Shown here piece by piece: positions 916 through 3,900 of a stretch of 64,000 nt of DNA. The position numbers were made by a program. Within the stretch, counting starts at the first letter, position 1; the number at the start of each line of letters is the position of its first letter. The DNA is taken from NCBI RefSeq assembly GCF_058153355.1, contig NZ_CM177019.1; one strand, 5' to 3'.

Positions 916-3900
916 TGATGAGGGACACGGTGCCTGTTTCATAAAGATCATTTATACCCGTCATACTTCAAGTTGCATATGCGTTGGCAAGTTATTCAGG
1001 GATAGCCGGATGAGTGACATCACCATCCGGCTTAAGATTCCATACTCTAAATAATTCGAGTTGCAGGACAAAACGCCAGTGGCGTTTTGAACAACTCTTG
1101 CGTTGACCCTGAAAGGGTGAGGCCTAAGGCCGAGTAACGCGACAGGCGAGTGACAAATTCGTCGGGAACGAATTTGACCAGCCTCTGGCTGGCCTTCGGT
1201 GAAAGGCATCCTGCCTTTCAGTCATCCCCAGTCACTTACTGGGGTGAGCGACAAATCCGCATGGAGCGGATTTGAACGCTGCTTGCAGCGGTCCCGTAAG
1301 GGGTGAGGCCCATGGATGGGCCGAATAACTCGCAGACGCAGCACATGCAACTTGAAGTATGATGGGTATATACACAATGAACTTCAAGACACTTGCTTCG
1401 GTATCTGGAAATTATCATTAATTCTGGATGAGACCAGCCTTGCTATATCTGGCAACGTTTCTTCAAAAACGTCGATATTGTATCCCTGAAATCTCACGCA
1501 CTGCTGAACCGGCATGTTCATTCATTATTTATCCAGGCCATTTGCAATCAGTACCATCACTATTATATGCCTCAATATTTTCTTCAAACTCAGTTATTTT
1601 TCCACTTTTCGATTTATAGTAAGATCTATTAAATATTGCACCCTGCGTAGCAACAACATACAATCCGTTGACTTTACACCCTATAACCTCACTCCATGTA
1701 TAAGTAAACTCTGAAGGTCTATCATCGAAAGTCATTTCCAATATTTCGTAAATGCAGGAGGTATGAATTTTGAGGACATTCCATAAACCACATAACCTAA
1801 AACAACATCACCAGAAGATACTTCAACAAATTTTAAATTTATCTTCCCCAAAATAAAACAGCCAACCGTAGTTTGTTATTTAGCAAGTAAGAAAAAGGGC
1901 ATCAAACAAAACATTAAAACAAATAATTTAACTTTCATATCATTTACACCAATTCAGTTATTCGCCTCTGTACAAAAGCACACACAGATTTTGAATTAAT
2001 GGCGTCCAAAAACATAATCGGATAAAAATACCACACCGGAATATTACTGATATAGCGGGATCTTACTCATTCGCTAAACTGAAAATGCAATTGAACAGAA
2101 ATTTCTTACTAGTGTTTAGATACTCGAAAAGGAAATCAACTCACTGGCAAGTATCATAAGCTCAAATTGGCATATTGTATATTCCCATAAATAATTTTAT
2201 TTTTTTGATTAACATACTCAATACTACACATCACTAATTGAGAGAAGATTAACTTCATCATCTTTGATTAGGTACGTTTTTTAATTTTCAATGACGCATC
2301 ATAAAAAAGGGCTTCCCAAGTTTAACACTAATAACAGGATATAAAGAAAATATATTGCTATATGAATCCTTTGGCGATGTTTTGGTTATCGTAATCTTTC
2401 CTTCTTTCAAGTGCTCTGCTATTATATGAAATTGAATCGGTCTTGTTGCATCACTTACCCGCAATGGATTGCCAGCGTAAGCTTCATACCCTCCACCATT
2501 ATTCATATGTAAAATAGTGTATTCGTCATTTAAAAATGGCTGCTTACTATCGTAGACTTGGTAGTATATATTACTTATATCAAGATAAATTACTATAGAG
2601 ATATACTTAATTTTTCATTTAGCATTAACGATGTATCCATGGAATCTATACATCTTTCAATATCAGTTATTTTTTCTTCTATATACGTAGCATAACTTTG
2701 TGGCACTGGCGTGTTTAGCCCTCATATACCCTCTTTAACTAAGACACCATTTTGCTTGCTTTTTACATTGTAATAAAGACAATCAATATTGGATTTATTA
2801 TTTTTATATTTCAGTGTTGTATATACAGTAAAATCATGCAGCGAACGCCCATCTGAAACAATTGCGGGCGTGTCAGAAAAAAGTCAAATGAATAAGATGG
2901 ATTATTTTCATAATCAGTCATAAATTTCATCTTTCTTATTTCATGATCAACGATCGCATAGATCTCATGATTAGATTCATCATATCCATAAATGATTTCA
3001 CCACCAGTACTGGCAGTAGCAGTAGCAGTAGCAGTAGCAGTAGCAGTAGCAGTAGCAGTAGCAGTAGCAGTAGCAGTAGCAGTAGCAGTAGCAGTAGCAG
3101 TAGCAGTAGCAGTAGCAGTAGCAGTAGCAGTAGCAGTAGCAGTAGCAGTAGCAGTAGCAGTAGCAGTAGCACTACTACAAATCAACATAATTACAAGTAC
3201 ATATCTAGTCAAGTTGAAAACCCTTAGGGGCGGATGATGTTTTTTCCAAGATGGATTGAAATTTTTCAACATAAGAATCCATTAATTGCTTCTGATATTT
3301 TTCATTAATTATTTTTCGCGTATTATCATATTAAATTTTATCACTATTAATATATTTGGGGATTTTTACTCGTAAAAATCCCCGCCTCCATTCCCCAAAT
3401 CATAATTGATACAGGACACAACTCTAGCAATGGTATCGTGAATAGTTTTCTTTAATAAGGCACGTCTCAATTCTTGAACATAAATTCGAATTATTTAGTA
3501 AAAAAACATCATCCCTGGTAGTATTACCTATTTTTGCATAATGCTATATTTATAGTAAACAATTCACAAGAAAATATTATTACTAATATTTATATTCCTC
3601 CCACTGAGCACCATATCGATGCTTTAACAGTTCAACTTTAATTTCATCATATGTTTTAACTTTACTACCATCAATCTTAAGACGAATTTTATTCGAGGTG
3701 ATATCAACATAATTTCTATTTTCCCCACCCGCGGGGAAAAAATCAAACATAAAATTAGACATGTTTTGTTCTTTTTTCATGAGAGCTCCATATTCACACA
3801 TGTCATTTATATTTTGTATGTATGGAGCGCCCCCCTGACATGATGGATAATGAAAATCAATTATAATAAAAAGCGATTTATTGATACTCCTCTGAAAGAA

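What the first reader, a model, noticed from the sequence alone, without database searches (positions are those of the whole stretch)
945..1375. ERIC-like element with inverted terminal arms enclosing about 360 bp
Two copies of the ERIC 3' arm in inverted orientation flank a segment containing the ERIC core. It is either an ERIC with an internal insertion or two partial ERICs, at the boundary between conserved mnmH and the accessory locus.
Basis: partly seen in the sequence, partly recalled or inferred. Interest (0 to 1): 0.25.

Follow-up and report, generated by a model that had tools for sequence, protein, structure and literature searches.

The report
Two abutting ERIC repeats with inserts
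The DNA just after the mnmH gene holds two copies of a common enterobacterial repeat (ERIC): one is a stump and one is complete but enlarged by three small hairpin-rich inserts, which is an ordinary kind of element, although the inserts prove to be relatives of the poorly understood RtT RNA.

Summary
Arms 953-982 and 1341-1370 are 28/30 complementary, 358 nt apart, and both are the same ERIC end. They are not the two termini of one element.

Aligned to the published 127-nt ERIC consensus, window 1041-1370 (+) is one complete ERIC. It has its own left arm (1041-1067), three ~70-nt insertions (A 1068-1135, B 1153-1222, C 1251-1326) and a 13-nt deletion in the central palindrome. Window 953-~997 (-) is the right end of a second, truncated ERIC, followed by an unassigned hairpin (1004-1032).

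The same triple-insert ERIC, without the stump, sits at ybhM in five E. coli genomes. Forms with two inserts are rare presence/absence insertions at bsmA-yjfN and rpiA-yqfE.

ERICs interrupted by ~70-bp inserts have been published since 1997, so the kind is known. The most likely role is selfish MITE DNA, probably co-transcribed with mnmH.

One further result: the three inserts are paralogous four-hairpin modules with strong covariation. The same module occurs outside ERIC across Proteobacteria, inside the T-loop of tRNA 3' fragments. That includes the E. coli K-12 rtT repeats (Rfam RtT) and Aggregatibacter sRNA 22. I found no paper making this link.

The parts
34..918 (+). 3' part of mnmH (tRNA 2-selenouridine synthase); stop codon 916-918
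   Evidence: ORF list. Annotated as mnmH in matching E. coli genomes.
919..952 (.). Spacer. Similarity to nearly all other E. coli genomes ends at about 921-927, so everything downstream belongs to the variable mnmH-ybbP segment
   Evidence: 5404 genomes match query 800-1045 only up to query position 110-127. Only 3 genomes continue.
953..997 (-). ERIC-1: truncated ERIC. It keeps only the right-end arm (32/36 to consensus) plus a GAATAAC tail like the end of a site-C insert
998..1040 (.). Unassigned 43 bp with hairpin 1004-1012/1024-1032 (AGCCGGATG..CATCCGGCT). It could be a remnant of an insert hairpin of ERIC-1, or REP-like. No relatives were found
   Evidence: Sequence, fold. No matches beyond the same locus. 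The metagenome scan gave only a chance coding hit.
1041..1370 (+). ERIC-2: complete ERIC (330 bp) in the orientation of the Wilson & Sharp consensus, carrying three inserts and a central deletion
   Evidence: Alignment A2 to the consensus and to other long ERICs. Backbone identity. Its own arms pair when folded alone.
1041..1067 (+). ERIC-2 left arm (CATACTCTAAATAATTCGAGTTGCAGG). The first base is C instead of the consensus T
1068..1135 (+). Insert A: four-hairpin module (68 nt) at ERIC site GCAGG^AAGG
   Evidence: RF02902, 31.4 bits; model R1, 74.9 bits.
1136..1152 (+). ERIC-2 backbone segment (AACGCGACAGGCGAGTG)
1153..1222 (+). Insert B: divergent copy of the same module (70 nt) at ERIC site GAGTG^AATCC
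   Evidence: R1 33.4 bits, E 2e-7, full-length match. B was not used to build the model.
1223..1250 (+). ERIC-2 central core with a 13-nt deletion and GAG>TCA. This makes the left half the exact complement of the right half (CCCCAGTCACTTAC^TGGGG)
   Evidence: and direct reading of the sequence.
1251..1326 (+). Insert C: four-hairpin module (76 nt) at ERIC site GAGCG^AACGC
   Evidence: RF02902, 25.5 bits; R1, 86.4 bits.
1327..1370 (+). ERIC-2 right arm (..GCACATGCAACTTGAAGTATGATGGGTATA), followed by TA

Best explanation
The feature is a composite of two ERIC/IRU miniature inverted-repeat elements lying tail to head in opposite orientations. It sits at the start of the variable segment that follows mnmH.

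ERIC-1 (953-~997, minus strand; possibly extending to 1040) is a stump that keeps only its right end. ERIC-2 (1041-1370, plus strand) is a complete ERIC. Its 127-bp backbone is interrupted at the three canonical internal sites by three paralogous ~70-nt four-hairpin modules, all in the same orientation. Its central quasi-palindrome has undergone a palindrome-templated 13-nt deletion and correction.

Shown: the anatomy; the homology to ERIC; the recurrence of ERIC-2 as a separate unit elsewhere; the precise presence/absence of related long ERICs at other loci; and the conserved structure of the modules.

Inferred: ERIC-2 arrived as a ready-made long ERIC by MITE-type transposition into a TA, catalysed in trans by an unidentified transposase. 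It landed next to or inside an older ERIC, most of which was then lost.

Also inferred: the element encodes nothing, is read through from mnmH (no terminator lies between them) and forms a large branched hairpin in the 3' UTR. At most this would modulate mRNA decay, as was shown for Yersinia ERICs. I put about 70% on it being selectively neutral or selfish at this locus, and about 15% on a real effect on mnmH expression.
For: - Arms and chance controls.
- Alignment to the published consensus (Delihas 2007, PMC2759123 Table 1a) and to three other long ERICs delimits the three inserts and the deletion.
- With the inserts removed, the backbone matches 97/127 consensus positions (100/127 to Salmonella SeRU-1). 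The score is 65, against -5.5 +/- 4.3 for 500 shuffles.
- ERIC-2 alone (window 1042-1370) recurs at 88.9% identity downstream of ybhM in 5 genomes, with different flanks. The full composite exists in only 3 of 5426 E. coli genomes, all at mnmH.
- An A+C long ERIC at bsmA-yjfN (3 genomes) and a B+C long ERIC at rpiA-yqfE (8 genomes) are precisely absent from the other genomes. At bsmA-yjfN the inserted copy is bounded by TA on both sides.
- ERIC-2 folds with its own arms paired and the modules as side branches.
- No terminator-like site lies between the mnmH stop and position 1502.
- NCBI's annotation pipeline calls no gene there in the three RefSeq genomes.
- ERICs are described as MITEs with TA duplication and with orientation-dependent effects on mRNA stability (PMC2229807; PMC10969869).
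Against: - The left end of ERIC-2 reads CATAC rather than TATAC, so a clean TA duplication is not visible.
- No empty site exists for comparison, because the whole segment is variable.
- The 43 bp between the two ERICs (998-1040) is not explained.
- Transcription, processing and any effect on mnmH were not tested.
- Both strands fold equally well, so folding energy does not show that an RNA is the relevant form.
- The transposase that moves ERIC is unknown.
Confidence: 0.8

Rival explanations
1. One ERIC whose termini are the two arms at 953-982 and 1341-1370, with a single ~358-bp internal insertion.
For: The two arms are the best-matching inverted repeat (28/30). In the fold of the whole stretch they pair with each other.
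Against: Both arms are the same (right) end of ERIC, whereas a real ERIC has two different ends. A proper left end lies at 1041-1066. Window 1041-1370 aligns end to end with the consensus and with other long ERICs. It also occurs without 953-1040 at ybhM.
Confidence: 0.04
2. A selected structured RNA element: a 3'-UTR stabiliser or destabiliser of mnmH, or a source of small RNAs processed from the modules.
For: Folding is very strong (z = -11.9). The modules show covariation in 20 of 24 pairs. G-U pairs favour the + strand, the sense of mnmH (pair 132-148: GU 45, GC 43). Relatives are recorded as RNAs: RtT/rttR in E. coli K-12 and an Aggregatibacter sRNA family. ERICs affect mRNA decay in Yersinia.
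Against: The composite is present in only 3 of 5426 E. coli genomes, so mnmH does without it almost everywhere. No Rfam family reaches its threshold in the window. Palindromic mobile DNA folds well on both strands regardless of function.
Confidence: 0.12
3. A recombination joint or attachment site that mediates exchange of the accessory segment between mnmH and ybbP.
For: It is the first thing inside the variable segment, and similarity to other genomes ends about 30 bp upstream of it. Repeats in regions of plasticity have been proposed to promote rearrangement (PMC3184786).
Against: The breakpoint (921-927) is not at an ERIC end. Other variants of the segment (rhsD, T6SS, dinQ-type) start at the same place without any ERIC. 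No integrase is adjacent. No second ERIC copy lies at the ybbP side of the segment.
Confidence: 0.03
4. Small protein-coding genes, such as the 82-aa ORF 961-1209 (-) or the 60-aa ORF 1236-1418 (-).
For: ORFs of 30-82 aa exist. ERIC-derived ORFs have sometimes been annotated as hypothetical proteins (PMC2759123).
Against: The ORFs overlap on both strands, as expected in GC-rich palindromic DNA. They span independently inserted modules. No gene is called there in the three RefSeq genomes.
Confidence: 0.01

Closest known systems
ERIC / IRU / RU-1 (Sharples & Lloyd 1990; Hulton et al. 1991; Wilson & Sharp 2006)
   Same: The backbone sequence, the two distinct terminal arms, the central core, the intergenic position just downstream of a gene, the long-hairpin fold and the multi-copy distribution in Enterobacteriaceae.
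   Different: 330 bp instead of 127 bp, because of three inserts. There is a 13-nt central deletion. The first base of the left terminus is C. It abuts an inverted stump of a second ERIC.
ERICs with ~70-bp interruptions at specific internal sites (Cromie, Collins & Leach 1997; Sharp 1997; I saw only the titles, in the reference list of PMC3696847; that the inserts are about 70 bp and site-specific is from my own memory of the Wilson & Sharp 2006 abstract)
   Same: Inserts of 68-76 nt at three fixed sites that keep the element foldable. The same sites are used in other E. coli, Pectobacterium, Serratia, Dickeya, Citrobacter and Klebsiella copies.
   Different: All three sites are filled in one element. 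By megablast that is rare in E. coli: 8 of 5426 genomes cover at least 75% of the query. I could not read those papers, so I cannot say how much of the insert anatomy they already describe.
RtT RNA (Rfam RF00391; rttR/tpr repeats of the E. coli tyrT-tyrV operon)
   Same: The core of each rtT repeat has the same four-hairpin module. It shares hairpins 2-4 and the linkers GA(A/G)C, CCCGAAGGG, GA(A/G) and GAGTAAT. It is likewise inserted at G^AATCC.
   Different: The host is the T-loop of a duplicated tRNA-Tyr 3' fragment, not an ERIC. Hairpin 1 has diverged. The window's inserts do not hit RF00391 at E <= 10. My model scores the K-12 copies only 21-25 bits.
AaHKsRNA22 (Rfam RF02902, Aggregatibacter sRNA 22)
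   Same: Same order of four hairpins and same conserved linkers. Inserts A and C are the best and second-best Rfam matches in the region (31.4 and 25.5 bits, full-length). Non-ERIC copies in Pasteurellaceae, Pluralibacter and Mariprofundus pass the family threshold.
   Different: The window's copies are below the gathering score of 39.8. The Rfam family is defined as a free-standing sRNA next to an uptake signal sequence, not as an insert in a repeat.
Correia/NEMIS elements of Neisseria (107-bp and 155-bp forms differing by a 50-bp internal segment; PMC2229807)
   Same: A MITE family with short and long forms that differ by an internal block.
   Different: Unrelated sequence. It has one internal block, not three copies of an independently distributed module.
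REP/BIME palindromic units
   Same: The hairpin 1004-1032 shares the outer stem GCCGGAT..ATCCGGC with REP.
   Different: The loop and inner stem differ, and there are no BLAST matches to E. coli REPs. The resemblance is too short to test.

Membership tests
ERIC / IRU | Sequence similarity to the 127-bp consensus over its whole length | tested here: met
   Window 1041-1370 minus the inserts matches 97/127 positions of the E. coli consensus and 100/127 of SeRU-1. Score 65 against -5.5 +/- 4.3 in 500 shuffles. Alignment A2.
ERIC / IRU | Two different termini that form an imperfect terminal inverted repeat (TATAC..GAGTTGCAG / TGCAACTTGAAG..GTATA) | tested here: met
   The left arm 1041-1066 has 1 mismatch and the right arm 1346-1370 has 0 mismatches against the degenerate search patterns. 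The two arms pair in the fold of ERIC-2 alone. The feature is not met if 953-1370 is taken as one element, because both of its ends are then the right arm.
ERIC / IRU | Conserved central core (region of the ERIC1R/ERIC2 primers) | tested here: met
   ATCCCCAG..ACTGGGGTGAGCG is present at 1224-1250, with 13 nt deleted and GAG>TCA.
ERIC / IRU | TA target-site duplication at the ends | tested here: inconclusive
   The right end is GTATA|TA. The left end is C|ATAC instead of TATAC, and no empty site is available. A related long ERIC at bsmA-yjfN is bounded by TA on both sides, and the K-12 empty site has a single (G)TA.
ERIC / IRU | Intergenic location inside a transcription unit | tested here: inconclusive
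   Intergenic: it starts 35 bp after the mnmH stop. No terminator-like site lies before it. Transcription itself cannot be tested with these tools.
ERIC / IRU | Dispersed multi-copy family in enterobacterial genomes | tested here: met
   5425 of 5426 E. coli genomes hold matches to the 441-bp query, with a median of 3 places per genome.
ERIC with site-specific ~70-bp insertions | Inserts at the same internal positions as in other long ERICs | tested here: met
   Sites A, B and C coincide with those of the ybhM, bsmA and rpiA copies and with copies from other genera.
RtT RNA (RF00391) | Reaches the Rfam gathering score | tested here: not met
   There is no RF00391 hit at E <= 10 in window 1030-1380. 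The family model includes the tRNA-Tyr flanks, which are absent here.
RtT RNA (RF00391) | Module embedded in the T-loop of a tRNA 3' fragment downstream of a tRNA gene | tested here: not met
   The host here is an ERIC. No tRNA-like flanks are present.
RtT RNA (RF00391) | Shared four-hairpin core | tested here: met
   Model R1, built without any rtT sequence, hits all four K-12 rtT/tyrT-spacer copies full-length at E ~1e-6 in a 2-kb search. RF00391 aligns full-length to a module-bearing tRNA fragment at 42.6 bits against a gathering score of 45.
AaHKsRNA22 (RF02902) | Reaches the Rfam gathering score (39.8 bits) | tested here: not met
   Insert A scores 31.4 bits and insert C 25.5 bits. Other members of the same module family do pass.
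REP / BIME | Match to the REP consensus hairpin | tested here: inconclusive
   Only the outer stem of hairpin 1004-1032 is shared. There are no BLAST matches.

The most novel reading that the evidence does not exclude
The ~70-nt 'interruptions' of ERIC are not ERIC-specific. They are copies of one widespread, independently spreading four-hairpin module: (G)ACAAA-hp1-TTTGAAC-hp2-CCCCGAAGGGG-YGAG-hp4-CGARTAA.

The module enters hosts in one orientation at G^AA sites. Those sites are often in T-loop-like sequence (TTCG^AATCC), in ERIC (GTG^AATCC, GCG^AACGC, AGG^AAGG), in a tRNA D-loop, or between uptake-sequence inverted repeats.

On this reading ERIC inserts, the core of E. coli RtT RNA and Aggregatibacter sRNA 22 are one family. 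That family reaches from Enterobacterales and Pasteurellaceae to Methylophaga, Aliidiomarina, Mariprofundus and a Pseudodesulfovibrio MAG. It would move by an unknown mechanism that leaves no terminal inverted repeats and no target duplication.

The probability given is for 'one family, independently mobile, and not already described as such'.
Probability: 0.35. Interest if true: 0.6.

Novelty: new member of a known kind. Interest (0 to 1): 0.25.

Why it matters
For the finding as given, little changes. It is unannotated repeat DNA of a well-known family, and it should not be mistaken for a gene, a regulator or an island attachment site.

It is a useful worked example for parsing long ERICs. 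The best inverted repeat in the region joins two different elements, so ERIC-PCR priming and automated repeat callers would mis-size it.

The side result could matter more. If ERIC inserts, RtT RNA and an Rfam 'sRNA' are one mobile structured module, this would give a genomic origin for the rtT repeats of the tyrT operon. It would explain the site specificity of ERIC interruptions by a shared G^AA(TCC) target. It would also define a small element whose way of moving is unknown and can now be searched for with a covariance model.

Tried and rejected
- A gap-lenient pairwise alignment of the ERIC consensus to the region overfitted and scattered the consensus over the inserts. I replaced it with a multiple alignment that included natural long ERICs.
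- I could not obtain Wilson & Sharp 2006, De Gregorio et al. 2005, Sharp 1997 or Cromie et al. 1997. Full-text searches for ERIC insertions or for an ERIC-RtT link found nothing relevant.
- The Aggregatibacter sRNA paper does not mention sRNA 22 by any name I tried.
- Origin of 998-1040: no relatives in E. coli genomes or in the fetched loci. The one metagenome scan returned a chance match inside a coding region. One fuzzy-regex script timed out.
- K-12 has no ERIC at rpiA-yqfE, and its RefSeq record showed no repeat_region features in the two stretches I fetched.
- The idea that the module always sits at the apex of a host hairpin is only weakly supported. Flank complementarity averages -16.4 against -14.7 kcal/mol for shuffled flanks (p = 0.016) and -15.5 +/- 0.4 for permuted partners. 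It holds for T-arms and for some Pseudodesulfovibrio copies, not in general.
- The module is rare in viral contigs, with 4 hits, so phages are not an obvious vehicle.
- An IS200/IS605-type mechanism seems unlikely because the 5' flank is not a fixed tetranucleotide. No Rfam group II intron or ribozyme family hits the modules.
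Full report
**Observation.** The window begins inside mnmH, whose stop codon is at 916-918.

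- The repeat finder reports inverted arms 953-982 / 1341-1370 (30 nt, 93% complementary, 358 nt apart) and an adjoining pair 980-997 / 1323-1340.
- A degenerate 25-nt pattern for the ERIC right arm matches exactly twice in the 64 kb (953-977 on the minus strand, 1346-1370 on the plus strand). None of 100 shuffles gives a match.
- The stretch 945-1375 folds at -212.5 kcal/mol, z = -11.9.

**What it is.** The published 127-nt E. coli ERIC consensus is printed in Delihas 2007 as the reverse complement of the Wilson & Sharp sequence (PMC2759123 Table 1a).

- A pattern for the other ERIC end (TATACYCWAAATAATTCGAGTTGCAG) has a single match in the window, at 1041-1066 on the plus strand, with one mismatch. 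None is expected by chance.
- I aligned window 1036-1376 with the consensus, the Salmonella SeRU-1 copy and three long ERICs from other E. coli loci (alignment A2). Window 1041-1370 is one complete ERIC in the consensus orientation.
- Its backbone is interrupted three times: after GAGTTGCAGG (insert A, 1068-1135), after GCGAGTG (insert B, 1153-1222) and after GGTGAGCG (insert C, 1251-1326). Thirteen nucleotides are missing from the central palindrome.
- With the inserts removed, 97 of 127 consensus positions match (100/127 to SeRU-1). The alignment score is 65, against -5.5 +/- 4.3 for shuffles.
- Folded alone, this element pairs its own two arms and carries the inserts as side branches.
- The centre reads CCCCAG-TCA-CTTAC^TGGGG where the consensus has CCCCAG-GAG-CTTAC-ATAAGTAAGTGAC-TGGGG. 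The triple change GAG>TCA makes the left half the exact complement of the right half. That is what a template switch within a quasi-palindrome produces. [quoted passage not shown]

**The left arm.** It belongs to a second element. Read on the minus strand, 953-997 is GAATAACTTGCCAACGCATATGCAACTTGAAGTATGACGGGTATA. This is an ERIC right end (32/36 to the consensus), preceded by the GAATAAC that ends a site-C insert.

The next 43 bp (998-1040) contain a hairpin (1004-1012 / 1024-1032). Its outer stem resembles REP, or possibly the last hairpin of an insert. It has no relatives in E. coli genomes, in the loci fetched here or in JGI metagenomes, where the one match is a chance hit inside a gene. 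I leave it unassigned.

No further ERIC arm lies anywhere else in the window, so the rest of ERIC-1 is gone.

**Independence of the two parts.**
- The full composite is present in only 3 of 5426 complete E. coli genomes, all at mnmH, at 99.3% identity.
- ERIC-2 alone (window 1042-1370) recurs at 88.9% identity downstream of ybhM in five genomes. There it has unrelated flanks and an undeleted centre.
- A long ERIC with inserts A+C lies between bsmA and yjfN in three genomes and is precisely absent elsewhere. The K-12 empty site reads CATTTTGTACCG, and the filled site has TA at both ends of the element.
- A B+C form lies between rpiA and yqfE in eight genomes and is absent from the rest.

Long ERICs therefore behave as units that insert, as expected for a MITE with TA target duplication (PMC2759123; PMC2229807).

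**Surroundings.**
- Similarity to nearly all other E. coli genomes stops at window 921-927, a few bases after the mnmH stop.
- The interval between mnmH and ybbP (window 14379-16793) is a known variable spot. It holds rhsD in K-12 and O157, T6SS cargo in some strains, and almost nothing in others.
- Here it holds low-GC orphan ORFs, a VgrG and a group II intron reverse transcriptase. It is collinear with E. coli MFDS1022581 apart from an IS2.
- The other variants begin at the same point without any ERIC, so the ERIC pair is cargo of this variant rather than the joint.
- No terminator-like site separates it from mnmH. NCBI's annotation pipeline calls no gene there.

**How it most likely works.**
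- Shown: the anatomy, the family membership and the mobility of long ERICs as units.
- Inferred: ERIC-2 transposed next to or into an older ERIC, which was then truncated. The composite is read through from mnmH and forms a large branched hairpin. In that fold the stump's arm competes with ERIC-2's own left arm for the shared right arm (compare).
- In Yersinia, ERICs change the stability of the upstream mRNA in an orientation-dependent, RNase E-linked way (De Gregorio et al. 2005, as summarised).
- Because almost all E. coli lack this composite, I consider a locus-specific function unlikely (about 15%) and selfish or neutral DNA most likely (about 70%).

**The inserts.** Rfam's only notable matches in the region are two sub-threshold, full-length hits of RF02902 (Aggregatibacter sRNA 22) on inserts A and C (31.4 and 25.5 bits; gathering score 39.8). 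The three inserts are paralogous. All start ACAAA directly after a G and share the order:

hairpin 1 (CAAA..TTTG) - AAC - hairpin 2 - CCCnGAAnGGG - GAG - hairpin 4 - CGA(A/G)T.

- Many lie in ERICs at sites A and C, in Serratia, Pectobacterium, Dickeya, Erwinia, Citrobacter, Klebsiella and Escherichia.
- Others have no ERIC around them. They come from Methylophaga, Aliidiomarina, Budvicia, Chimaeribacter, Pluralibacter, Yersinia artesiana, Pasteurellaceae, a Mariprofundus MAG and a Pseudodesulfovibrio MAG.

Structural support for the module:
- An alignment of 33 diverse copies gives four helices, with compensatory changes in 14 of 24 pairs.
- On 118 distinct copies aligned to covariance model R1, 97.2% of cells pair. 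Column shuffles give 75.8%, and partners slid by 1-3 columns give 33-43%. Twenty of 24 pairs show double changes. This alignment was fitted to the model, which favours the structure.
- The frequent G-U at the base of hairpin 3 (GU 45, GC 43) would be A-C on the other strand. This points to the strand given as the folded one.
- In the window, R1 finds exactly three copies, all on the plus strand inside ERIC-2. One of them is insert B (33.4 bits, E 2e-7), which was not used to build the model.

**Hosts outside ERIC.**
- In three MAG loci (L100, L065, L066) the module splits a duplicated tRNA 3' fragment exactly in the T-loop (..GGTTCG|module|AATCC..CCA). In L065 and L066 an intact tRNA gene lies just upstream; in L100 only a second, unsplit tRNA 3' end does (ARAGORN called no tRNA there).
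- Downstream of tRNA-Phe in Escherichia sp. ESNIH1 and Enterobacter sp. Cy-643 the module sits antisense in the same position of tRNA 3' fragments, in ~162-bp tandem units. Aliidiomarina also has tandem copies downstream of tRNA-Phe, but there I did not show T-loop flanks.
- In one case it lies in a D-loop-like copy of tRNA-Ser. In one it lies between inverted uptake-sequence repeats. In one it lies just upstream of a 5S rRNA gene.
- The junctions read G^AA in nearly all cases. ERIC site B (GTG^AATCC) is nearly the T-loop target (TCG^AATCC).

**Link to RtT.**
- Rfam's RtT RNA model (RF00391) aligns full-length to one of these split tRNA fragments (42.6 bits against a gathering score of 45).
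- In E. coli K-12, each rtT repeat downstream of tyrV, and the tyrT-tyrV spacer, reads ..CCAAGGTTCG|ACTCGAGCG..GCTGAGT|AATCCTTCCCCCACCACCA.
- R1 hits all four copies full-length, at E about 1e-6 in a 2-kb search.
- RF02902 passes its own threshold on copies in Pasteurellaceae, Pluralibacter and Mariprofundus.

I therefore read the ERIC inserts, the RtT core and AaHKsRNA22 as one module family.

**What I could not establish about the module.**
- How it moves. It has no terminal inverted repeats, no target duplication and no fixed 5' flank.
- Whether the literature I could not read already says this.
- A general preference for the apex of host hairpins is only weakly supported.
- The module is rare in viral contigs.

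**Comparison and verdict.** The feature passes the tests for ERIC membership that could be run. The exceptions are a clean TA duplication at its left end and direct evidence of transcription (see the membership table).

ERICs with ~70-bp interruptions have been in the literature since 1997 (reference list seen; the detail on size and site specificity is from my own memory of the Wilson & Sharp 2006 abstract). The finding is therefore a new copy, in a rare triple-insert and composite arrangement, of a known kind, and its interest is low. The insert-RtT connection is the only part that might be new. I rate it separately as the novel case.

Noticed in passing
L135 (E. coli K-12 NC_000913.3:1286300-1288300), hits at 427-500, 605-689, 783-856 and 1080-1164 on the minus strand: Each rtT (rttR/tpr) repeat, and the tyrT-tyrV spacer, is a duplicated tRNA-Tyr 3' fragment whose T-loop is split at G^AATCC. 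The splitting sequence is a diverged copy of the same four-hairpin module that forms the ERIC inserts.
   Followed up: partly
Loci L009-L133, e.g. L100:484-565, L066:5200-5281, L065:321-402, L082:1413-1651, L121:9062-9139, L063:2682-2767: The module occurs outside ERIC in many Proteobacteria. It is found in T-loops of tRNA 3' fragments next to tRNA genes, in a tRNA-Ser D-loop copy, between inverted uptake-sequence repeats, and inside other genome-specific repeats (Chimaeribacter, Pluralibacter, Pseudodesulfovibrio). The junctions read G^AA.
   Followed up: partly
Alignment A3: By eye, roughly 19 of 33 diverse module copies carry GGA in the loop of hairpin 1, and a similar number in the loop of hairpin 4 (e.g. 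CAGGGAUGG, CAUGGAUGG). This resembles CsrA/RsmA binding sites. The A-type ERIC inserts, the Pasteurellaceae copies and the K-12 rtT copies lack them.
   Followed up: no
L003:2001-2274 versus L134; L004:2001-2256: Long ERICs with two inserts are rare, precise presence/absence polymorphisms in E. coli. The A+C form lies between bsmA and yjfN in 3 of 5426 genomes. The B+C form lies between rpiA and yqfE in 8. All the lineage-specific ERIC insertions met here were long forms.
   Followed up: partly
window 921-927: Similarity to about 5400 E. coli genomes ends a few bases after the mnmH stop. The mnmH-ybbP interval (to about 14300) is a replaceable segment that holds rhsD, T6SS cargo or almost nothing in other strains.
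   Followed up: partly
window 3013-3171: A perfect hexanucleotide array (GCAGTA) x 26.5 lies inside a 153-aa minus-strand ORF (2811-3272), where it encodes a Thr-Ala run. The region is low in GC, and the ORF has no Pfam match.
   Followed up: no
window 7064-10283 (-): A VgrG (812 aa; Phage_GPD, Gp5 trimerisation and OB domains) is followed by an ORF with a weak M35-type metallopeptidase match and by orphan ORFs. This is probably an orphan T6SS spike and effector island.
   Followed up: no
window 12054-13796 (-): A group II intron-type reverse transcriptase with maturase and HNH domains lies next to ybbP. The intron RNA boundaries were not examined.
   Followed up: no
window 25803-49278 (-): A 6224-aa BapA-like protein rich in Ig-like domains (29140-47814) is flanked by a TolC-like outer membrane protein, an ABC transporter and a HlyD-family protein. 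Together these look like a giant adhesin with its type I secretion system.
   Followed up: no
window 957-1001 (-) and 1321-1364 (+): The Rfam isrH model (positions ~165-212) gives weak partial hits on both ERIC right arms. This suggests that the Salmonella sRNA family model contains an ERIC fragment.
   Followed up: no
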